Origin: a virus
Lineage: Duplodnaviria > Heunggongvirae > Uroviricota > Caudoviricetes
DNA length: 64,000 bases
Virus record (IMG/VR): IMGVR_UViG_3300032280_000361
Direction: 5' to 3' (one strand)
A model generated the notes under the pieces. The model was not told the DNA's origin, did not search any database, and was given only the letters and a program-made list of their open reading frames with translations. Position numbers and translations under genes: made by a program. Of this stretch, positions 7,269 through 63,235 are shown piece by piece. Position 1 is the first letter of the stretch; each line of letters opens with the position of its first letter.

Positions 7269-7823
7269 TTATAATTTGAATGTTGGTAATACTTTATCTT
7301 TGTGTGATACTTTAACATCGATATCTCTTACTCCCCAATCAATCTTAAACGTTGGGTCATTATAAACAATACCACCTTCTGATTCTTTATTATAATAGTT
7401 ATCCACTTTGTAGTTGAATATTGCCTCTTTTGATAAAACTGAAAATCCATGCCCACATCCTTTAGGCACAAATACCATCTTACCATTCTTATCACTTAAA
7501 TCAATGGTGATATGTTTTCCATATGTATCCGAATCATGTCTTAAATCTACAATCACATCTCTAACTAAACCATACGAACATCTTACTAATTTAGATTGTG
7601 CCCATTCTCCTTGCTGAAAATGAATACCTCTAACAACTCCATACTTAGAAAATGATTCGTTATCTTGTAAAAATGTAACGTTATGACCTAATGTAAGCTT
7701 CAATACATCTTCAAACACATCCTTAACATATGGTGTTGAAAAGTATCCCCTTTCATCTTTATAGATTTCAGGCTTTACAATGAAACAATCTTTGATTTTG
7801 GTTTTCTCTAATTTGTATTCCAT
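7269..7823 (-). CDS. rfbC: dTDP-4-dehydrorhamnose 3,5-epimerase
   Basis: DERGYF, QDNESFS..GVVRGIHFQ, QSKLVRC, VPKGCGHGF, YKVDNYY. Confidence 0.95.
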   Translation of the reverse strand: MEYKLEKTKIKDCFIVKPEIYKDERGYFSTPYVKDVFEDVLKLTLGHNVTFLQDNESFSKYGVVRGIHFQQGEWAQSKLVRCSYGLVRDVIVDLRHDSDTYGKHITIDLSDKNGKMVFVPKGCGHGFSVLSKEAIFNYKVDNYYNKESEGGIVYNDPTFKIDWGVRDIDVKVSHKDKVLPTFKL

Positions 7824-7901
7824 AACTTATTTTTAATGATATCAAACCACGCTTATTTTAACGGATGGTGGTTTTGCCGTAAACACATATTCATTTATTT
7901 G

Positions 7902-8049
7902 CTGTAAGAGATGGACTCGAACCACCACGATGCGATTCAGTAAGTAACACTTTGCCGGCCGGCTGGTGGTCTACCCCATATTACTTACCTATTTCGTTCT
8001 CACCACCCCCGAGACAGGAGGGCTTGTCTGCCAATTTCAACACCTTACA
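7902..8049 (-). ncRNA. tRNA-Asp(GTC)-like RNA with ~79-nt extended variable arm
   Basis: Acceptor TGTAAGG/TCTTACA+G73, Leu-type D arm, anticodon arm CCCTC-CTGTCTC-GGGGG, T arm GGTGG-TTCGAGT-CCATC. Confidence 0.7.
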
Positions 8050-8054
8050 ATATG

Positions 8055-8141
8055 CGGAGGAGGTAGGATTCGAACCCACGATACCCTTTCAAGTATGTCT
8101 GATTTCAAGTCAGGTGCCGTCAACCGCTTGGCTACTCCTCC
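8055..8141 (-). tRNA. tRNA-Ser(TGA)
   Basis: Cloverleaf, loop CTTGAAA, long variable arm, TTCGAAT. Confidence 0.92.
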
Positions 8142-8150
8142 GTTATTTTA

Positions 8151-8420
8151 TTAATAGATATGAGTTTCTTCATTTCTGAAATCTCTTGTATCTAATTCAT
8201 ATTTACTTTGTCTTCTTCTAGCTTCTTCAGCTTCTTTGTACCAACGAATCCAAGTTAAGGATACATCGATTGGTGCAAGAACCCACGCCATCATCACTAC
8301 CATAATAGTATCTAATTCAGGTGAACCACCTACAGGAGAATTATCATATCTCTTATTTAGATTACGGAATAGTTGATAGAAACAATAAATAACACAAATT
8401 ACATAATAAGTAATAAACAT
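8151..8420 (-). CDS. Hypothetical membrane protein
   Basis: ORF behind promoter 8441-8472, two hydrophobic stretches. Confidence 0.65.
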   Translation of the reverse strand: MFITYYVICVIYCFYQLFRNLNKRYDNSPVGGSPELDTIMVVMMAWVLAPIDVSLTWIRWYKEAEEARRRQSKYELDTRDFRNEETHIY

Positions 8421-8440
8421 AACTTCTTTTTTAATTTAAG

Positions 8441-8472
8441 TAAAGATACGAAAATTATTTCAAACTTGCAAA
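8441..8472 (-). promoter_or_regulatory. Bacteroidota-type promoter
   Basis: TTTG-N20-TATCTTTA. Confidence 0.7.
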
Positions 8473-8480
8473 TCTTTTTG

Positions 8481-8551
8481 TTATTCGGGCTGGATTCGAA
8501 CCAGAACTAACTGCACCAAAAACAGTTGTGCTACCGTTACACCACCGAACA
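8481..8551 (-). tRNA. tRNA-Gln(TTG)
   Basis: Cloverleaf, loop TTTTGGT, TTCGAAT. Confidence 0.9.
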
Positions 8552-8626
8552 ATACCTCAGGCATTCTACTTCTCGCAACAGAAATTGTATCTTACTTAGC
8601 CCTGCTGTGCGATACGGGTACCTGAT

Positions 8627-8701
8627 TGGAGCAGATGAGAGGAATCGAACCTCCGTCTCCTACTTGGAAGGAAGGAGTAATGGCCATTATACGACATCTG
8701 C
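8627..8701 (-). tRNA. tRNA-Gly(TCC), CCA encoded
   Basis: Cloverleaf, loop CTTCCAA, U73-CCA. Confidence 0.92.
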
Positions 8702-8764
8702 TTAAAAAATGGTGGATAGAAAACATCTATCTTCCTTTCGGCACTCCACCGGATGCCCACTATC

Positions 8765-9271
8765 TTAAATCATACTCTTACTATGTTTTGGGATACGATT
8801 AATCCACATTGCTAATACTTCTCTATTTCCTTCGGTTACCTGTTTAACAGAGTGTTTAGTATTACCATCAAACTCAATCATCTCCCCCAACCCAAATGGT
8901 ATATGTTCTTTTTCTAAATAAAACTCACCACCTTTAAAAGAATCACTAAGTAACATTATATAAGTTCGGATAGATGAAAGAGTATCCGTATGTTCTTTAG
9001 CCTCTTCTCCCACTTTATAATGAATATAATGTATGGATGATAAATATTCAGTATCCTCATTTAATTGAATATACTTCTTTACTATATCAACTAATTCTTT
9101 ATTTCTTAAATCACAAAAGAATGTTTCACTACTAACTAAATCAGTATTATATCCTTTGTTATCCGACCTGAATATAAATGGGTTTTCACTTTCCTTTATC
9201 CCATTCTCTTCTCCATCTCTGTATATTTCTTTTATACGATTAATATCTTCTATTGATATAGTTTGTTTCAT
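8765..9271 (-). CDS. 2OG-Fe(II) oxygenase
   Basis: Y..G....HTD, FKGGEF, HSVKQVTEGNR. Confidence 0.8.
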   Translation of the reverse strand: MKQTISIEDINRIKEIYRDGEENGIKESENPFIFRSDNKGYNTDLVSSETFFCDLRNKELVDIVKKYIQLNEDTEYLSSIHYIHYKVGEEAKEHTDTLSSIRTYIMLLSDSFKGGEFYLEKEHIPFGLGEMIEFDGNTKHSVKQVTEGNREVLAMWINRIPKHSKSMI

Positions 9272-9284
9272 ATCATTTTGTTTG

Positions 9285-9358
9285 TGGACCAGATAGGAAT
9301 CGAACCTATGACCTTCGGCTTATGAGGCCGCCGCTCTAACCGTCTGAGCTACAAGTCC
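9285..9358 (-). tRNA. tRNA(CAT), probably Ile2 (lysidine type)
   Basis: Cloverleaf, loop CTCATAA, body resembles Ile-type tRNAs; Met not excluded. Confidence 0.8.
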
Positions 9359-9414
9359 ATATCGTTTAATTGAACGATAAAATCAAATATCGTTTTTTTC
9401 AACGATAAATAAGG

Positions 9415-9534
9415 TGCCGGAGGAGAGATTGGTTACTCACACGATGTCCACTTAGGATACATCACCTTTCTAGAATTACGGTACGTCTAATAGTTTTTAT
9501 TCGAAACTCAAACTATTCTTTCCGCCACTCCGGC
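9415..9534 (-). ncRNA. Aberrant tRNA-Leu-like RNA with D-loop hairpin insert and degenerate anticodon and T loops
   Basis: Perfect acceptor GCCGGAG/CTCCGGC+A-CC, Leu-like GTGGCGGAA...AGACG, variable arm GATGT/ACATC. Confidence 0.55.
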
Positions 9535-9540
9535 ATATTG

Positions 9541-9614
9541 TGGAGATGATAGGAGTCGAACCTATTACCCTCTGCGTGCAAGGCAGATGCTCTAGCCAAA
9601 TGAGCTACACCCCC
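9541..9614 (-). tRNA. tRNA-Ala(TGC)
   Basis: Cloverleaf, loop CTTGCAC, G3:U70. Confidence 0.93.
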
Positions 9615-9627
9615 ATAAAATTTAACG

Positions 9628-9713
9628 TACCAGAGGTGGGAGTCGAACCCACACGAGCGATTTATGCTCAACAGATTTTAAGTCTGTCATGTCTACCATT
9701 CCATCACTCCGGC
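9628..9713 (-). tRNA. tRNA-Leu(TAA)
   Basis: Cloverleaf, loop CTTAAAA, long variable arm. Confidence 0.93.
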
Positions 9714-9719
9714 ATTTTA

Positions 9720-10136
9720 TTACTTTACAACTGCGTAAAGTTTTGCGTTCTTAAATGATGTTTGTTTATCATCCTCACCAATTAAGATATCAACTCTTTT
9801 TTTATATCTCTTATTCATCACATCTCTTATAGTATAAGTACCACTAAGTTTACCGATGCCTGTAATCCTCACCTTCTTACCAAACTTATACTTCTTTTTC
9901 AAATCTCTACTCACCGCAACTATCCTATGTTTCTTTGGATTAGTAGGATTGATTTCAAACCCACTTGCGGTAATCAATGGAGTACTATCAGTTTGCTCTA
10001 CCGTAGGTGAATAAGTTGTCACCGTAACAATATCAGGCTCAATACCTTTAATCTCCATTTCAATTTCTTTCTCCATCATATTAATTTCCATTGGTAGGAT
10101 AAATAATACAAAAGATAAAATGATGTTTACATGCAT
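9720..10136 (-). CDS. 3D-domain (MltA-like) putative lytic transglycosylase
   Basis: VTTYSP..QTD.TPLITASG, IVAVSRD, D.MN.RY..RVDIL; N-terminal hydrophobic anchor. Confidence 0.8.
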   Translation of the reverse strand: MHVNIILSFVLFILPMEINMMEKEIEMEIKGIEPDIVTVTTYSPTVEQTDSTPLITASGFEINPTNPKKHRIVAVSRDLKKKYKFGKKVRITGIGKLSGTYTIRDVMNKRYKKRVDILIGEDDKQTSFKNAKLYAVVK

Positions 10137-10160
10137 AACATTTTGTTTTAAAGTTTAATG

Positions 10161-10234
<74 letters not shown>

Positions 10235-10239
10235 AAATC

Positions 10240-10404
10240 GTTGTTTCAACTTGCAAGTTTACTCTTAACATCTCTTTCTCTACAACGTCTGAATTTAATC
10301 AACATTTGTAGTCCGAATGTAGCTTTTGGGTAATTACTCCAGTGCTTCTATGTAACTCTATATACCTTGCTTTGTTACTAAGCGTGTTAAGTGTATGAAA
10401 CAAC
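10240..10404 (-). ncRNA. Candidate structured ncRNA (165 nt) between tRNA-Asp and tRNA-Arg
   Basis: Terminal stem GTTGTTTCA/TGAAACAAC continued by CTTAACA/TGTTAAG; internal hairpins. Confidence 0.5.
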
Positions 10405-10407
10405 TTG

Positions 10408-10481
10408 CGGAATGTATGGGACTCGAACCCATGACCTCATCCGTGACAGGGATGCATTCTAACCAACTGAACTAACACTCC
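10408..10481 (-). tRNA. tRNA-Asp(GTC)
   Basis: Cloverleaf, loop CTGTCAC, G73. Confidence 0.93.
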
Positions 10482-10486
10482 AACTG

Positions 10487-10559
10487 AGCCTCCCATCGGA
10501 ATCGAACCAATGACCTACTGATTACAAATCAGTTGCTCTACCTGCTGAGCTAGGGAGGC
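10487..10559 (-). tRNA. tRNA-Thr(TGT)
   Basis: Cloverleaf, loop TTTGTAA. Confidence 0.93.
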
Positions 10560-10564
10560 AATTG

Positions 10565-10636
10565 TACTCAGTACGGGATTCGAACCCGTATTACATCCGT
10601 GAAAGGGATGTGACCTAACCCTTAGTCGAACTGAGC
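10565..10636 (-). tRNA. tRNA-Glu(TTC)
   Basis: Cloverleaf, loop CTTTCAC. Confidence 0.92.
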
Positions 10637-10640
10637 GTTT

Positions 10641-11039
10641 TTAAAAAGGTAAACTGATAGAACTACTATTAAATGCACTTCTATGTTTTAACTTTTGTAT
10701 TTCCGCTATTAATGTCAAATAACTATTAACCATACTATTCTTATGTAACTCTTCACATACTTGTCTAAGAAACTGATTCATATCCCACATATCTTTCCTA
10801 CGAAATATCCTTTTGATATTAGGAGTAATCTGCGTTGGAACTATATAAGCAGTCATCCAAAACTCTGTATCTTTTGCCTGTAATGTTACTTTTAATAATG
10901 TATCTCCGATATTTTCAGAATTATCCATTTCCAATACATAGAAATCATCCTTATCCGTATAAGTAGAGGATATGGATAACCCCGCTCCACTAATGAATAC
11001 ACTCCTATACCTTAACTTATCCCACCCTTTTATTATCAT
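10641..11039 (-). CDS. Hypothetical protein
   Basis: ORF directly behind promoter 11047-11078. Confidence 0.65.
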   Translation of the reverse strand: MIIKGWDKLRYRSVFISGAGLSISSTYTDKDDFYVLEMDNSENIGDTLLKVTLQAKDTEFWMTAYIVPTQITPNIKRIFRRKDMWDMNQFLRQVCEELHKNSMVNSYLTLIAEIQKLKHRSAFNSSSISLPF

Positions 11040-11046
11040 AACTTTA

Positions 11047-11078
11047 CAAAGATACGAAAAAACATTGATATAACCTAA
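11047..11078 (-). promoter_or_regulatory. Bacteroidota-type promoter
   Basis: TTAG-N20-TATCTTTG. Confidence 0.7.
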
Positions 11079-11098
11079 TATTTCTTCATTTATTTCCG

Positions 11099-11184
11099 CA
11101 GAGAGTGAGGGGCTCGAACCCTCGCGGCTTTAACACCCTAACGATTTAGCAAACCGTCCCCTTCACCAACTTGGGTAACTCTCT
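11099..11184 (-). tRNA. tRNA-Ser(GCT)
   Basis: Cloverleaf, loop TTGCTAA, long variable arm, G73. Confidence 0.92.
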
Positions 11185-11188
11185 ATTG

Positions 11189-11262
11189 GGTGTCTAATGA
11201 GGTTCGAACTCATACTATCAGTACCACAAACTGACGTGCTGACCATTAACACTATAAACACC
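11189..11262 (-). tRNA. tRNA-His(GTG)
   Basis: Cloverleaf, loop TTGTGGT, G-1:C73. Confidence 0.92.
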
Positions 11263-11271
11263 ATTTTAATT

Positions 11272-11538
11272 CTATTCTTTAGCCGCTTCAGCCCAATTCT
11301 CATTAACCATTGACCAATAGTTTTTGTTTAAGTAGATAATATCATATCCACTATCGTTTCTATCTATGAAGATAATTCCTTTCTTAACCAATGAACCCAA
11401 AGCCCCTCTGATTGTTTTTGTTGGGATGCCCATTTCTTCACTCAAATCGTTTACATCCACATCTGAATAACCAGGTTCCGCATATAAACAACTAATGAAA
11501 GTACTCAATGTTTTGTCTTCTAACCATGTAATGTTCAT
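11272..11538 (-). CDS. Winged helix-turn-helix protein
   Basis: VNDLSEEMGIPTKTIRGALGSLVKKGII pattern. Confidence 0.75.
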   Translation of the reverse strand: MNITWLEDKTLSTFISCLYAEPGYSDVDVNDLSEEMGIPTKTIRGALGSLVKKGIIFIDRNDSGYDIIYLNKNYWSMVNENWAEAAKE

Positions 11539-11568
11539 AACTTTTATATTTTAAGGTTTATAATTTAA

Positions 11569-11790
11569 TTATCTAACTACTTCACCACGCTCTAACCAGA
11601 ATGAATCATTTCTTCTGGCATTCATCTCCCACTTAGCTCTCTCATACCTCTCATTACTAATCGCACCCATCTCAAAACAATACTCCATATTCAACTCAAA
11701 AGGAGAAACACGCAAATGCATCGCACGAGTTATTAGGAACTCACAATACTCATTAACACTCATCAAATCCAAATTGGGTAAACTATTCAT
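11569..11790 (-). CDS. Hypothetical protein
   Basis: ORF behind promoter 11826-11857. Confidence 0.65.
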   Translation of the reverse strand: MNSLPNLDLMSVNEYCEFLITRAMHLRVSPFELNMEYCFEMGAISNERYERAKWEMNARRNDSFWLERGEVVR

Positions 11791-11825
11791 ATCTTTTATC
11801 TTTATGTTTAACTCTTATTACATAG

Positions 11826-11857
11826 TAAAGGTAATACATTTTGCATTAAAAGTCAAG
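11826..11857 (-). promoter_or_regulatory. Bacteroidota-type promoter (early class)
   Basis: CTTG-N20-TACCTTTA-CTATG. Confidence 0.65.
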
Positions 11858-11877
11858 CTTTATTTCATTTATTTTTG

Positions 11878-11947
11878 TCGCATGTATGAGGTTCGAACTC
11901 ATTTGGTCATCCTTATGAGAGATAACTCTTTTCCACTAAGCCATGCA
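11878..11947 (-). tRNA. Atypical tRNA-Met(CAT) with shortened D arm
   Basis: Loop CTCATAA, T arm ATGAG-TTCGAAC-CTCAT, acceptor TGCATG/CATGCG; only 70 nt. Confidence 0.7.
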
Positions 11948-11952
11948 GTTTG

Positions 11953-12023
11953 AGGTGGATATTGGATTTGAACCAATGTAAATGGTTTTGCAGACCACCT
12001 CCTCACCTCTCGGACAATCCACC
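11953..12023 (-). tRNA. tRNA-Cys(GCA)
   Basis: Cloverleaf, loop CTGCAAA, U73. Confidence 0.92.
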
Positions 12024-12029
12024 CTATTG

Positions 12030-12101
12030 TAGCCCCTAAAGGATTCGAACCCTTACTAAAACATCCGTAGTGTTTCGTGCTATCCGTTACACCAAAGAGC
12101 C
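12030..12101 (-). tRNA. tRNA-Arg(ACG)
   Basis: Cloverleaf, loop CTACGGA. Confidence 0.92.
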
Positions 12102-12107
12102 AAATTG

Positions 12108-12178
12108 CACCCCCTGAAAGATTCGAACTTTCATCTGCGGTTTTGGAGACCGTTATGCTACCATTGCACCAAAGAGAT
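12108..12178 (-). tRNA. tRNA-Trp(CCA)
   Basis: Cloverleaf, loop CTCCAAA, G73. Confidence 0.9.
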
Positions 12179-12183
12179 GTGTG

Positions 12184-12257
12184 TTGGAATAGATGGACTC
12201 GAACCATCGACTTTCACCGTATCAGGATGACACTCTAACCAACTGAGTTATATTCCA
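12184..12257 (-). tRNA. tRNA-Ile(GAT)
   Basis: Cloverleaf, loop CTGATAC. Confidence 0.92.
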
Positions 12258-12263
12258 ATGTTG

Positions 12264-12339
12264 TCGGATAAGCAGGATTCGAACCTGCGTGCTCCACATC
12301 CCAAATGTGGCGAGATAGACCTGACTCCTCTACTATCCG
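12264..12339 (-). tRNA. tRNA-Pro(TGG)
   Basis: Cloverleaf, loop TTTGGGA, C1:G72, A73. Confidence 0.92.
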
Positions 12340-12345
12340 TTATTG

Positions 12346-12419
12346 TGAACCCGAATGGACTCGAACCATTGACTCCCTCATTAAAAGTGAGGTGCTCTAA
12401 CCAACTGAGCTACGAGTTC
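12346..12419 (-). tRNA. tRNA-Lys(TTT)
   Basis: Cloverleaf, loop CTTTTAA. Confidence 0.93.
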
Positions 12420-12425
12420 ATTCTG

Positions 12426-12498
12426 TGGAGAAAGTTGGTTACGCTCCAACTCCTGTGGATTTTCAGTCCACTGCTTCTACTAAGTTAGCTTCTTCTCC
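12426..12498 (-). tRNA. tRNA-Phe(GAA) with non-canonical D and T loops
   Basis: All stems intact, loop CTGAAAA; T loop AGCGTAA, D loop lacks GG. Confidence 0.8.
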
Positions 12499-12505
12499 TA
12501 TTAAG

Positions 12506-12587
12506 TGCCTGCAGATGGACTCGAACCACCGAACTCCGAAGAGAGGAGATTTACAGTCTCCAGCAATTGCCACTATGCGATACAGGC
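12506..12587 (-). tRNA. tRNA-Tyr(GTA)
   Basis: Cloverleaf, loop CTGTAAA, variable arm. Confidence 0.92.
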
Positions 12588-12591
12588 AGTT

Positions 12592-12685
12592 AAAAGATTA
12601 ATAACACATATAGAAGAAATCACATCTTCTCTTCCCCAAAAGAGGAATTAGTTTCATCCACATAGGCGATTTACATTAATCTTTT
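12592..12685 (-). ncRNA. Candidate structured ncRNA (94 nt) between tRNA-Val and tRNA-Tyr
   Basis: 11-bp terminal stem AAAAGATTAAT/ATTAATCTTTT, two internal hairpins. Confidence 0.45.
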
Positions 12686-12686
12686 G

Positions 12687-12760
12687 TAGAAGATATAGGA
12701 TTCGAACCTATGACTCTCGCCATGTAAAGGCGATGCTCTAACCAACTGAGCTAATCTTCT
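12687..12760 (-). tRNA. tRNA-Val(TAC)
   Basis: Cloverleaf, loop TTTACAT. Confidence 0.92.
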
Positions 12761-12765
12761 GTATG

Positions 12766-12847
12766 TGCCCCCTAAGAGACTCGAACTCTTAATCCTTTCG
12801 GTCTTGTGCCTAAAACAAGCGTGTCTACCAAATTCCACCAAAGGGGC
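12766..12847 (-). tRNA. tRNA-Leu(TAG)
   Basis: Cloverleaf, loop TTTAGGC, variable arm CC-GAAA-GG. Confidence 0.9.
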
Positions 12848-12860
12848 AACTTTCCCATAA

Positions 12861-12871
12861 TGTCAAAGAAC
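12861..12871 (-). promoter_or_regulatory. rrn-type boxA antitermination element (similar copies 14231-14240, 14553-14562)
   Basis: GTTCTTTGACA on the transcribed strand. Confidence 0.65.
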
Positions 12872-12880
12872 TTTCTTTTG

Positions 12881-12952
12881 CGTTGGTAATAGGGGTCGAA
12901 CCTATAGCCTATCGGTTAACAGCCGATTGCTCCACCATTGAGCTACACCAAC
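12881..12952 (-). tRNA. tRNA-Asn(GTT)
   Basis: Cloverleaf, loop CTGTTAA, G73. Confidence 0.93.
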
Positions 12953-12960
12953 ATACACTA

Positions 12961-12997
12961 AAACAAAAAAACCCCTAACTTTTTGAGTTAGAGGTTT
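12961..12997 (-). terminator. Intrinsic terminator (attenuator) directly upstream of the 12-tRNA block
   Basis: AAACCTCTAACT-CAAAA-AGTTAGGGGTTT followed by U tract. Confidence 0.8.
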
Positions 12998-13026
12998 CTT
13001 TATATGAATATGAGTATTTGTTCTAC

Positions 13027-13185
13027 TTATCCTACATCTGTATCCTCTAACTTTGTACTAATATAATCCACCTTGCCTAATTCTAGTTGCACCGGATTGC
13101 TTATTGTACTAAACATACGAATCCCGCACCACTCATTTCTCAATGTAGGTTGCGAATTATTTGTATGTAAGTTAAGAGTTTTCAT
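13027..13185 (-). CDS. Putative attenuator leader peptide (52 aa)
   Basis: Manual ORF MKTLNLHTNNSQPTLRNEWCGIRMFSTISNPVQLELGKVDYISTKLEDTDVG; contains AGTTAGAGG complementary to the terminator 5' arm. Confidence 0.65.
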   Translation of the reverse strand: MKTLNLHTNNSQPTLRNEWCGIRMFSTISNPVQLELGKVDYISTKLEDTDVG

Positions 13186-13229
13186 CTTTTGTTAATATAA
13201 GTATCTAATATTTTTGTTTTAAATAAAAA

Positions 13230-13299
13230 AAGTAATTCATCTTCAAAATACGCCACGTCAAGTCATGCTCCGGTTAATATAAGCCTCGATAAATTACTT
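13230..13299 (-). ncRNA. Candidate stem-closed ncRNA (70 nt)
   Basis: Terminal stem AAGTAATTTATC/GATGAATTACTT followed by U run. Confidence 0.35.
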
Positions 13300-13306
13300 C
13301 TCACTG

Positions 13307-13347
13307 CTATCATTATTGGAATCGAACCAACTCTAACCATTATGATA
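13307..13347 (-). ncRNA. Mini-tRNA (acceptor stem plus T arm, no anticodon arm)
   Basis: TATCAT-A-ATGGTTAGA-GTTGG-TTCGATT-CCAAT-A-ATGATA-G-CA. Confidence 0.6.
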
Positions 13348-13357
13348 ATAAAAAAAT

Positions 13358-14218
13358 AAGGATGAGAATACTCCATATTGTGAACCAGCTTTATAAGGGT
13401 TATTAGTTGCCTTAATTTCCACTTCCTTTTGAGAAGTACCAATTCAATGTGGGTAAGTAATGCCTACCAATCATAAAGTTACAAATTACTCTCTTCGTAC
13501 TCATTTTCTTCAAGCCTCGCAGCCTGATTAGTTCTTGCGGAATTAGAAACCTTTCGAAAGAATCACATTTACCTTGAGAGTATTTGTGGCAGGGAACAGC
13601 TCCCTACTATGTACACACCTTTCGTCTGTAACTGGCAAACACTTTTTCTTTATGATTATTAATTTTTGAAGTCAATATCAAAAGTTTTTGGTTTGTAGAT
13701 TTGTTCAAGTAGTGGTTTGCCACCAGCTCCGTTATCTTTTGAACAACAGAATACTAAACTACTCGATGTGATATCCCTATCACCATATTTTGAGTCATCT
13801 TCATTTATAAGTGTTGGTACACTTTATAAAAGGATAGTAACAGCACCATCTGTACACAGTCTTATCTTAATGGGTTTCCCCAATTTGATGTTAAGACCAC
13901 TCTAATATTGAATCACGCAATTATATGAAGGGATTAAGTTCATACTTCTTACATAAATTCTATGAGTTATTCTTATTGGTGTTCCCACCTCAACTGAACA
14001 ATCTACGTTTGCTCAGTCACCTCTACTCCTCTCCTAAAGTGTTACCCTCAGTTACTAAGCAGTTGTGATATCTCACTTGCATACTCGAGCTCACCTCCCT
14101 TACGGGGGAGAAGCCGCAGAATAGTTAACCAACTACTCCACTTTATCCTTCTTTCGAAGTTTATTTAACGACCATATGCGGCCACTCTATTGTGTAACAC
14201 TAAGTTACTATATAGAAA
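13358..14218 (-). ncRNA. Large ornate structured RNA (~860 nt), GOLLD-like
   Basis: No credible ORF, own promoter plus boxA, many GNRA-capped hairpins and AGTA/GAA motifs, inside a phage tRNA cluster; family inferred from size and context. Confidence 0.65.
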
Positions 14219-14256
14219 TTATTTCATTAAATTAAAGAACTTTTCTTTTGTTTTAA

Positions 14257-14288
14257 CAAAGATACGAAAACTTTTTCATATTTCCTAG
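14257..14288 (-). promoter_or_regulatory. Bacteroidota-type promoter for the large ncRNA
   Basis: CTAG-N20-TATCTTTG. Confidence 0.7.
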
Positions 14289-14315
14289 TCTTTTTAAAAC
14301 TTTTTTTTACAAAAA

Positions 14316-14409
14316 GTGAGAGGGGTATCCGGCTTTGTTAACCCCCTTACCATAAGGAAGTGGTCACTCATTCGGTTTTATTAGATGATGGCTTCAACCA
14401 CTCTCTCAT
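14316..14409 (-). ncRNA. Candidate structured ncRNA (94 nt) with own promoter
   Basis: Terminal stem TGAGAG/CTCTCA, hairpins GTGGT/GACCAC and CCTTA-TGG-TAAGG; followed by U run. Confidence 0.5.
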
Positions 14410-14418
14410 TTTGTTCTA

Positions 14419-14450
14419 CAAATATACGAAAAGGTTTTCACATTTCCTAA
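14419..14450 (-). promoter_or_regulatory. Bacteroidota-type promoter
   Basis: TTAG-N20-TATATTTG. Confidence 0.7.
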
Positions 14451-14473
14451 TTTATTTGTAAATATTTTTGTTG

Positions 14474-14545
14474 TTGCGGGAGAAGGATTCGAACCTCCGG
14501 CCTTTAGGTTATGAGCCTAACGAGCTACCACTGCTCTATCCCACG
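14474..14545 (-). tRNA. Initiator tRNA-fMet(CAT)
   Basis: Cloverleaf, C1xA72 mismatch, loop CTCATAA. Confidence 0.9.
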
Positions 14546-14585
14546 ATATAATTTTAAAGAACTTCTGTTAGTATTTATATATATA

Positions 14586-14617
14586 CAAATATACTATAAA
14601 AACATCGAAATTCCAAA
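14586..14617 (-). promoter_or_regulatory. Bacteroidota-type promoter for tRNA-fMet
   Basis: TTTG-N20-TATATTTG. Confidence 0.7.
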
Positions 14618-14633
14618 AATATTTTTATTTTTT

Positions 14634-14888
14634 TTAACTATGGCAATTCATAGCACACATAGATAATAGGAAGATGTTGTTTCTACAATCTGTATCTGCT
14701 CTACTCATTGCTAGGTATAAGTTATTAGCAACTACTGCCTCTACAAATCCACCACCTGCATAAGAACTCTTATCTCTGGTACACATAATTGATACCATAA
14801 TATCTATGATGTGGTTACTTACATTTTCATAACCCCACTCTTTAGCGAATTGAATAGCTCGCTCTCTATTTTGCTCTCTGATATCCAT
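14634..14888 (-). CDS. Hypothetical protein
   Basis: GGGFVEAVVANNL..A.SRAD motif; packed operon. Confidence 0.7.
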   Translation of the reverse strand: MDIREQNRERAIQFAKEWGYENVSNHIIDIMVSIMCTRDKSSYAGGGFVEAVVANNLYLAMSRADTDCRNNIFLLSMCAMNCHS

Positions 14889-14898
14889 AGTTTATATT

Positions 14899-15084
14899 TT
14901 ATTTTTTAATAATCAATTCCAAATTGTTGTCATCGAATCGTAGTCCAACAACTTCTCCACCATCACCATTAGTATTAGATTCAACTAACTCCATAAACTT
15001 TTTAAGGTCTACTGCTCTTACGAAGATACCACCCTGGCATTCTCCTTCAAATCCATCTTTCCAAAATACTTGTTCGTTAAACAT
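14899..15084 (-). CDS. Hypothetical protein
   Basis: Packed co-directional ORF. Confidence 0.65.
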   Translation of the reverse strand: MFNEQVFWKDGFEGECQGGIFVRAVDLKKFMELVESNTNGDGGEVVGLRFDDNNLELIIKK

Positions 15085-63203: not shown

Positions 63204-63235
63204 CAAAGATACGAAAATTGTTTTAAATTTCCAAA
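63204..63235 (-). promoter_or_regulatory. Bacteroidota-type promoter upstream of TBDR leader
   Basis: TTTG-N20-TATCTTTG. Confidence 0.75.

What the first reader, a model, noticed from the sequence alone, without database searches (positions are those of the whole stretch)
13358..14218. ~860-nt highly structured RNA (GOLLD-like) expressed like an rRNA operon
Seen: an ORF-free stretch behind its own promoter (14257-14288) and a boxA-like site (14231-14240). On the minus strand it has many tetraloop hairpins (CTTC-GAAA-GAAG, CCC-GTAA-GGG, GGTG-GGAA-CACC, TGGG-GAAA-CCCA, GTGATA-GGGA-TATCAC, GGCT-GCGA-GGCT), repeated AGTA/GAA motifs and possible long-range pairing (TGAGTA/GAGAGTA with the 3' TATTCTCA). 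Established: GOLLD RNAs are ~800 nt, found in lake metagenomes and phages next to tRNA genes, and their function is unknown. The family assignment is inference from size and context.
Basis: partly seen in the sequence, partly recalled or inferred. Interest (0 to 1): 0.75.

Follow-up and report, generated by a model that had tools for sequence, protein, structure and literature searches.

The report
Known GOLLD RNA in lake phage
This 860-base gene-free stretch is an ordinary full-length copy of GOLLD, a known giant phage RNA that builds hollow RNA-only cages; what it adds is small: a ribosomal-RNA-type anti-termination signal in front, a tRNA-shaped tag behind, and one compensatory change that supports a cage contact.

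Summary
Confirmed, and a known family. Rfam GOLLD (RF02032) matches 13359-13766(-) over the whole model at 293 bits (cut-off 150). The 5' half, outside the model, is shared by 211 full-length relatives from viral and metagenome contigs. My covariation test found 99 significant pairs, 41 in the 5' half. The RNA (about 14217-13359, 860 nt) is lake-type, close to env-38, the solved 14-mer cage; motifs for all ten inter-chain bridges are present. Loop L21b (bridge B9) is GCGA rather than GGCA, a GC-to-CG palindrome swap of the kind the cryo-EM paper could not find. The Bacteroidota-type promoter and boxA are real: boxA precedes 101 of 105 relatives and matches rRNA-operon boxA in sampled Bacteroidota genomes. 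There is no rRNA-like leader-trailer helix. In the near clade a tRNA or tRNA-like element follows the 3' end in 44 of 47; here a 42-nt anticodon-less mini-tRNA, probably an RNase P mark (inferred). Expression could not be tested; function is unresolved. This scan has already reported GOLLD with boxA on other DNA (e1-5392366, e1-5379779). New member of a known kind; interest 0.3.

The parts
13359..14217 (-). GOLLD RNA, full length, about 860 nt (lake/env-38 type)
   Evidence: Rfam RF02032, 293.2 bits; 211 full-length relatives; 99 covarying pairs. The ends are inferred from structure and conservation, not mapped.
13767..14217 (-). 5' (cap) domain, outside the Rfam model; its first hairpin (14216-14186) lies upstream of where the env-38 cryo-EM construct begins
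   Evidence: 41 covarying pairs; alignments A1, A2; env-38 sequence read
13359..13766 (-). conserved 3' (ring) domain
   Evidence: Rfam model positions 1-416, not truncated
13649..13693 (-). variable A/T-rich linker J13/15, 45 nt, no embedded tRNA
   Evidence: 18% GC; 28-79 nt in relatives, median 48; ARAGORN found no tRNA inside in any row seen (output partly cut)
13513..13524 (-). P21b hairpin; loop GCGA is the self-kissing bridge B9 with GC swapped to CG
   Evidence: loops in 211 relatives: GGCA 135, CGCAA 40, GCGA 29, GATA 3, GGCG 2, AGCA 1, CGGCCA 1; env-38 B9 is G675-C676
14257..14288 (-). Bacteroidota sigma-A-type promoter; -7 box at 14264-14257, predicted start 14252; upstream element degenerate
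   Evidence: the same extended motif recurs at 63211, 21602, 14426, 11054 and 962; TAnnTTTG at -12 to -5 (PMC9723704); strict motif within 70 nt upstream of boxA in 60/97 relatives (no shuffle control)
14232..14241 (-). boxA (Nus antitermination signal)
   Evidence: 101/105 relatives against 0.8% in shuffles; same motif in 14/17 16S leaders and 12/12 spacers sampled from the phylum of a Bacteroidetes MAG
13305..13348 (-). anticodon-less mini-tRNA (acceptor stem, D-loop-like linker, T arm), about 10 nt after the GOLLD 3' end; candidate RNase P mark
   Evidence: 16 of 108 representatives carry it, with compensatory acceptor-stem changes; 44/47 near relatives have some tRNA-like element here against about 9 expected
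13229..13299 (-). conserved 70-nt stem-closed RNA, no Rfam family
   Evidence: 58 loci; compensatory pairs 13297:13232 and 13269:13261; no Rfam hit
13027..13185 (-). 52-codon leader ORF of the attenuator; antiterminator strand at 13052-13044
   Evidence: treated as a separate finding (e1-5595898)
12961..12997 (-). intrinsic terminator; the clearest one after GOLLD (no systematic scan run)
   Evidence: mutually exclusive folds (z -3.1 and -2.5)
12863..12872 (-). second boxA, between tRNA-Asn and tRNA-Leu at the head of the tRNA array
14316..14408 (-). separate conserved 93-nt RNA with its own promoter (14426-14419), no Rfam family
   Evidence: 112 loci, 88 distinct sequences; covarying pairs 14388:14368, 14385:14371, 14399:14324
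14473..14545 (-). tRNA-Met(CAT) upstream, with its own promoter (14593) and boxA (14563)
   Evidence: tRNA-Met is the usual upstream neighbour in near relatives, as for env-38

Best explanation
It is a lake-type GOLLD RNA of a large aquatic phage that most likely infects Bacteroidota. Steps: (1) Shown: family membership, and the two-domain secondary structure with its pseudoknots. (2) Inferred, about 85%: host RNA polymerase starts near 14252 and boxA loads the host Nus antitermination complex, which protects about 1 kb of untranslated RNA from Rho, as in rRNA operons. (3) Inferred, about 65%: RNase P cuts in front of the mini-tRNA, and trimming leaves the 3' end at the terminal hairpin (about 13359). 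The transcript runs on to the leader-peptide attenuator, so GOLLD is made whether or not the tRNA array behind it is read through. (4) Inferred, about 85%: the RNA self-assembles into a hollow dihedral cage like env-38, probably a 14-mer, through the ten bridges. (5) Function, my best guess, about 35%: an abundant, nuclease-resistant multivalent particle in the phage's translation-support kit that soaks up or distracts host RNA-attacking defences (tRNA-cutting nucleases, toxins) while the phage supplies its own tRNAs. The confidence given is for steps 1-4.
For: Rfam full-model hit, 293 bits against 150. 99 covarying pairs at E<=0.1, 93 of them at least 80% canonical. Tertiary pairs match the cryo-EM description: L27 with J24/26 (13417:13368), B7 (13647:13577; CG 63, GC 34, AT 10) and two pseudoknots (13719-13716 with 13636-13639; 14004:13697). 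Bridge residues in the paper's supplementary table 2 map by eye onto the window: B1 GAAA loop 14154-14153 with the T13606.G13590 receptor; B2 loop identical; B4 five pairs 13934-13930 with 13773-13777, all canonical in the window; B5 loops near-invariant; B7 GA/UC as in env-38; B8 loop CGCAA as in env-38; B9 palindrome kept; B3, B6 and B10 loops and receptors present. boxA 101/105, matching Bacteroidota rrn boxA. 3' neighbour: tRNA-like in 44/47 near relatives; in the far group 21 tRNA-like and 22 terminator of 54 (shuffles: 7 and 1). Context: 24 tRNAs on the same strand, tmRNA beside many relatives, endolysin and ligases in the window.
Against: Stoichiometry varies in the family (10-, 12- and 14-mers), so 14 is a guess. 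B4 is only partly conserved among relatives (13930:13777 paired in 42%). The bridge mapping was done by eye on machine-read text with dropouts. The host is inferred from promoter and boxA only. Many far relatives have few or no tRNAs in the fetched DNA, which weakens a strict tie to tRNA supply. Nothing here tests step 5.
Confidence: 0.85

Rival explanations
1. Same RNA and cage, but its job is to hold cargo: it encloses or binds ribosomal subunits, tRNAs or proteins as a storage or hibernation compartment.
For: The env-38 cage is 380 A wide and empty; the paper cites ribosome pull-down with GOLLD and tRNAs embedded in the linker of other GOLLDs. rRNA-like expression signals would suit ribosome-scale amounts.
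Against: This copy and its relatives have a short (28-79 nt), unconserved, A/T-rich linker with no tRNA seen, so the tRNA 'inhibited storage' model does not apply here. The solved cages are empty.
Confidence: 0.3
2. GOLLD is a scaffold that recruits tRNA-processing or repair enzymes (RNase P, ligases) and so helps mature or repair the neighbouring phage tRNAs.
For: It heads the tRNA unit, is followed by a tRNA-like element in 44/47 near relatives, and an RNA ligase is encoded at 1523-2722.
Against: In the far group 22 of 54 end in a plain terminator and many have no tRNA nearby. No protein partner is known.
Confidence: 0.15
3. It is a new class of large RNA, only superficially like GOLLD.
For: The 5' 450 nt have no Rfam match.
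Against: RF02032 models only the 3' domain (416 positions), and that domain scores 293 bits. The 5' half is collinear with the published env-38 GOLLD.
Confidence: 0.01
4. The boxA and the mini-tRNA serve the downstream tRNA array, not GOLLD, and are incidental to it.
For: boxA also stands before tRNA-Met (14563) and inside the array (12872).
Against: boxA sits just upstream of GOLLD even in relatives that end in a terminator and have no tRNA in the fetched DNA.
Confidence: 0.1

Closest known systems
GOLLD env-38 (Rfam RF02032; 833 nt; PDB 9MEE; Kretsch et al. 2025, PMC12286853)
   Same: Same two domains, same stem order, short disordered linker, upstream tRNA-Met, and motifs for all ten bridges. 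By eye, env-38's P21 region matches L243, which is 84% identical to the window RNA.
   Different: About 30 more bases at the 5' end (a hairpin upstream of the construct's start); L21b loop GCGA instead of GGCA; A-U instead of U-A at the B6 receptor. boxA and the 3' tRNA-like tag are not mentioned in the sections I read.
Streptococcus agalactiae GOLLD (700 nt, PDB 9L0R, 12-mer; review PMC12990946)
   Same: Conserved 3' domain; next to tRNA clusters.
   Different: That RNA lacks P9, P11a-c and P21b; the window RNA has P21b, P11a and a full-length 5' domain.
Mycobacterial GOLLD with an embedded tRNA (PMC6582537; PMC12990946)
   Same: 3' domain; located in tRNA arrays.
   Different: No tRNA in the linker here; the tRNA-like piece lies behind the 3' end.
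Bacterial rrn operon (boxA, NusB-S10 antitermination; PMC13753749)
   Same: Host promoter followed at once by boxA, then a long untranslated structured RNA and tRNAs; a second boxA further down.
   Different: No leader-trailer helix; no rRNA; an attenuator sits between GOLLD and the tRNAs.
MALAT1/mascRNA and mitochondrial t-elements (own knowledge)
   Same: A small tRNA-shaped element directly behind a long RNA, able to direct RNase P and so define its 3' end.
   Different: Analogy only; no cleavage was shown here.
ROOL RNA (PMC12286853)
   Same: Phage RNA cage near tRNA islands.
   Different: Unrelated structure; no Rfam ROOL, OLE or HEARO hit in the region.

Membership tests
GOLLD (RF02032) | 3' domain matches the covariance model above the gathering score | tested here: met
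   293.2 bits against 150, E 8e-83, model 1-416
GOLLD (RF02032) | About 800 nt or more, with a variable structured 5' domain | tested here: met
   860 nt; 41 covarying pairs in the 5' half
GOLLD (RF02032) | Pseudoknots and tertiary pairs (L27 with J24/26; L20 with J13/15) | tested here: met
   13417:13368, 13647:13577, 13719-16:13636-39, 14004:13697
GOLLD (RF02032) | Variable unstructured linker between the domains | tested here: met
   45 nt, 18% GC, unconserved
GOLLD (RF02032) | Phage or prophage location near tRNA genes | tested here: met
   24 tRNAs; endolysin and ligases; relatives on IMG/VR contigs
env-38-type GOLLD cage | Sequence motifs of bridges B1-B10 | tested here: met
   mapped by eye; conservation counted; B4 only partly conserved among relatives
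env-38-type GOLLD cage | Forms a 14-mer particle | not testable with these tools
   needs mass photometry or cryo-EM
GOLLD (RF02032) | Expressed as a discrete, abundant RNA | not testable with these tools
rRNA-operon-like expression unit | boxA directly after the promoter | tested here: met
rRNA-operon-like expression unit | Leader-trailer helix for RNase III | tested here: not met
   window duplex -12.6 against -14.4 kcal/mol shuffled; mean z +0.3 over 105 relatives
ROOL, OLE, HEARO | Rfam match | tested here: not met
   no hit up to E 10 in 7800-15000

The most novel reading that the evidence does not exclude
Lake-type GOLLD has a dedicated, rRNA-like production line: Nus antitermination from a near-invariant boxA, and a 3' end made by RNase P at an exchangeable tRNA-like tag. 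It is produced ahead of a translation-sensing attenuator, as the constitutive part of a phage translation-rescue operon, and the cage acts on ribosomes or on tRNA-cutting defences. If so, the boxA, tag and bridge mutants named here would make GOLLD's unknown function directly testable in Flavobacterium.
Probability: 0.2. Interest if true: 0.7.

Novelty: new member of a known kind. Interest (0 to 1): 0.3.

Why it matters
The RNA itself is not new, and hundreds of close relatives exist in public data. GOLLD's function is an open question, so details of how it is made have some value. Three are worth passing on. (1) boxA precedes 96% of the lake-type GOLLDs sampled; I found no statement of this in the papers I could read. 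(2) The 3' neighbour alternates between a tRNA-like tag and a terminator, which points to how the 3' end is made. (3) Loop L21b switches among GC, CG and AT and keeps a self-complementary dinucleotide in all 211 copies; Kretsch et al. wrote that B9 was too conserved for such a test. These refine a known system; they do not reveal a new one.

Tried and rejected
A leader-trailer helix was rejected. An embedded tRNA was not found. One search used a hand-typed structure that was out of register; disregard it. The pattern scan of GTDB genomes gave 10 hits; only L286 (1.6-kb contig in a Cyanobium MAG) reached the GOLLD cut-off, and L288 (2.1-kb contig in a Bacteroidetes MAG) has the 5' part cut by the contig end. 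Both are probably mis-binned phage pieces. The archaeal hits gave no GOLLD match (some lie near locus ends). A genome search with RF02032 rang nowhere, not even in controls, so it is uninformative. Among annotated phage records only two uncultured 635-642 kb genomes matched; no cultured phage was found at that sensitivity. Weinberg 2009 and Morgado 2020 were not retrievable. I considered an RNase P-like or ribozyme identity for the 93-nt upstream RNA and found no support (no Rfam hit). The covariation test is my own G-test with a tree-based null of only 12 simulations, not R-scape. Relatives were fetched mainly with one 5'-domain motif, so all counts apply to lake-type GOLLD only.

Full report
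Verdict. The stretch is a real, highly structured RNA gene and a full member of the known GOLLD family. It is a new member of a known kind.

Observation. The six hairpins are present on the minus strand, and the region folds better than shuffles (z -4.8). Only two short TTG frames touch it. Rfam gives one non-tRNA hit above cut-off in the whole window: GOLLD RF02032 at 13359-13766(-), 293.2 bits against 150, all 416 model positions. ROOL, OLE and HEARO do not match. The model covers only the 3' domain, so the 5' 450 nt needed their own test.

Setting. The window looks like part of a large phage: nearly all genes on one strand, endolysin, RNA and DNA ligases, and 24 tRNA genes at 8054-14545, all on the minus strand. 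An extended TAnnTTTG motif recurs in front of transcription units (63211, 21602, 14426, 14264, 11054, 962). This is the -7 box of Bacteroidota sigma-A promoters, placed at -12 to -5 (PMC9723704), so the host is probably Bacteroidota and the start is near 14252 (inference). Relatives lie on viral contigs of up to 483 kb and in two uncultured 635-642 kb phage genomes.

Relatives and structure. Pattern scans gave 281 loci; 211 hold a usable full-length copy, reduced to 108 representatives at 55-84% identity. A G-test with average-product correction and a tree-based null (12 simulations; my own code, not R-scape) gave 99 pairs at E<=0.1, 93 of them canonical in at least 80% of sequences and 41 in the 5' half. 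They include two pseudoknots (13719-13716 with 13636-13639; 14004 with 13697, joining a 5'-domain loop to the start of the linker) and the tertiary pairs 13647:13577 and 13417:13368. The linker (13693-13649) is 45 nt, 18% GC and unconserved, and no tRNA was seen inside the RNA.

In the GAGAGTA register, G13489:T13368 turns into G.A in 47 of 107 relatives without compensation, while 13368 covaries perfectly with 13417 (AT 59, TA 48). The terminal loop therefore pairs with J24/26 (13420-13417) and with TG at 13446-13445, in line with the cryo-EM paper's description of L27. The TGAGTA register has an invariant T.T mismatch.

Comparison with the solved cage. Kretsch et al. (PMC12286853) solved env-38 GOLLD, 833 nt, as an empty 14-mer held by ten bridges. 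Reading their sequence (machine-read text, compared by eye), env-38 belongs with the window's nearest relatives; its P21 region matches L243. Motifs for all ten bridges are present: B1 (GAAA loop 14154-14153 and T13606.G13590 receptor), B2 (loop identical), B3, B4 (five canonical pairs in the window, only partly conserved elsewhere), B5 (near-invariant loops), B6, B7 (GA/UC as in env-38; covarying CG 63, GC 34, AT 10), B8 (loop CGCAA), B9 and B10. The paper says B9 was too conserved for covariation. Here the loop is GCGA instead of GGCA. Over 211 copies the loops are GGCA 135, CGCAA 40, GCGA 29, GATA 3, GGCG 2, AGCA 1 and CGGCCA 1. Each keeps a self-complementary dinucleotide (GC, CG or AT), and one-step non-palindromic loops such as GGAA, which would be stable GNRA loops, never occur. 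GCGA appears at six places on the tree, but some copies share near-identical flanks, so recombination is likely and I count at least two origins, plus GATA.

How it is made. boxA lies at 14241-14232, 11 nt after the predicted start. It is found within 150 nt upstream in 101 of 105 representatives, against 0.8% in shuffles. The same motif stands in 14 of 17 16S leaders and 12 of 12 16S-23S spacers from genomes sampled in the phylum of a Bacteroidetes MAG. boxA loads NusB-S10 and blocks Rho (PMC13753749), which a long untranslated RNA would need; that step is inferred. Unlike rRNA, the flanks do not pair. Ten bases after the terminal hairpin lies a 42-nt mini-tRNA with acceptor stem and T arm but no anticodon arm; its acceptor stem shows compensatory changes in 16 representatives. 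In the near group (65% identity or more) some tRNA or tRNA-like element occupies this place in 44 of 47 (about 9 expected from shuffles): mini-tRNAs, odd Gly-like tRNAs or others. In the far group the place holds a tRNA-like element (21 of 54; several are weak calls that also have a terminator) or an intrinsic terminator (22). That exchangeability suggests the element's job is to define GOLLD's 3' end through RNase P (inference). Further down come a 70-nt conserved RNA, a 52-codon leader ORF and a terminator with an alternative antiterminator fold, then tRNA-Asn, a second boxA and the rest of the array. GOLLD thus lies before the attenuator and would be made whether or not the tRNAs are read through.

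What it does. Not shown for any GOLLD. My best guess (about 35%) is a stable multivalent decoy against host RNA-attacking defences, part of the same kit as the tRNAs and the tmRNA seen beside many relatives. Cargo or ribosome binding (30%) and a processing scaffold (15%) are the rivals. The tRNA-storage model proposed for mycobacterial GOLLD does not fit this copy, whose linker is empty.

Novelty. The family, its cage and its tRNA-island setting are published. This scan has reported GOLLD with promoter and boxA on other DNA (e1-5392366, e1-5379779, e1-2366708), and the attenuator and mini-tRNA in this window are separate findings (e1-5595898, e1-5595900). I had noted both from the alignment before those look-ups. 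I found no mention of these in the papers I could read, but the library lacks Weinberg 2009, Morgado 2020 and most subscription papers. Limits: no expression data, host inferred, relatives selected mainly by one motif, bridge mapping by eye. Interest 0.3.

Noticed in passing
window 14316-14408 (-): Conserved 93-nt RNA with its own promoter, between tRNA-Met and GOLLD: near-invariant core, variable hairpin, covarying stems, possible loop-CCG/CGG pseudoknot; 112 loci, some with no GOLLD in the fetched DNA; no Rfam family.
   Followed up: partly
window 13229-13299 (-): Conserved 70-nt stem-closed RNA just before the leader ORF, 58 loci, with compensatory changes; no Rfam family.
   Followed up: partly
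window 12961-13185 (-): Leader ORF with antiterminator/terminator switch in front of the tRNA array; conserved in L003, L005, L008-L011. Already followed up as e1-5595898.
   Followed up: partly
L003, L005, L006, L008, L009, L011 (alignment A1 columns 585-630): A further small conserved element of about 50 nt, with its own promoter-like site, sits between the 93-nt RNA and GOLLD in many relatives but is absent from the window.
   Followed up: no
L005 about 8670-8990; L019, L088, L241, L267 just after GOLLD: Odd Gly-like tRNAs with GTCCA or TTCCA anticodon loops and degenerate T loops, often missed by ARAGORN, take the place of the mini-tRNA.
   Followed up: no
L001 5775-5895 and 6837-6910; L002 5660-5756 and 6856-6950: In the two 635-642 kb phages, duplicated tRNA-like genes with unusual anticodon loops lie on both sides of GOLLD, and L002 has extra inserted hairpins in the 5' domain.
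   Followed up: no
window 11879-11946 (-): Degenerate 25th tRNA-like gene (20.5 bits, below cut-off; CAT anticodon) at the end of the dense tRNA block.
   Followed up: no
   Followed up: no
L286, L288: GOLLD-bearing 1.6-2.1 kb contigs inside a Cyanobium MAG and a Bacteroidetes MAG, probably mis-binned phage DNA.
   Followed up: partly
window 14563, 14241, 12872 (-): Three of the four minus-strand boxA matches in the 64-kb window fall within 1.7 kb, each before a non-coding unit.
   Followed up: partly
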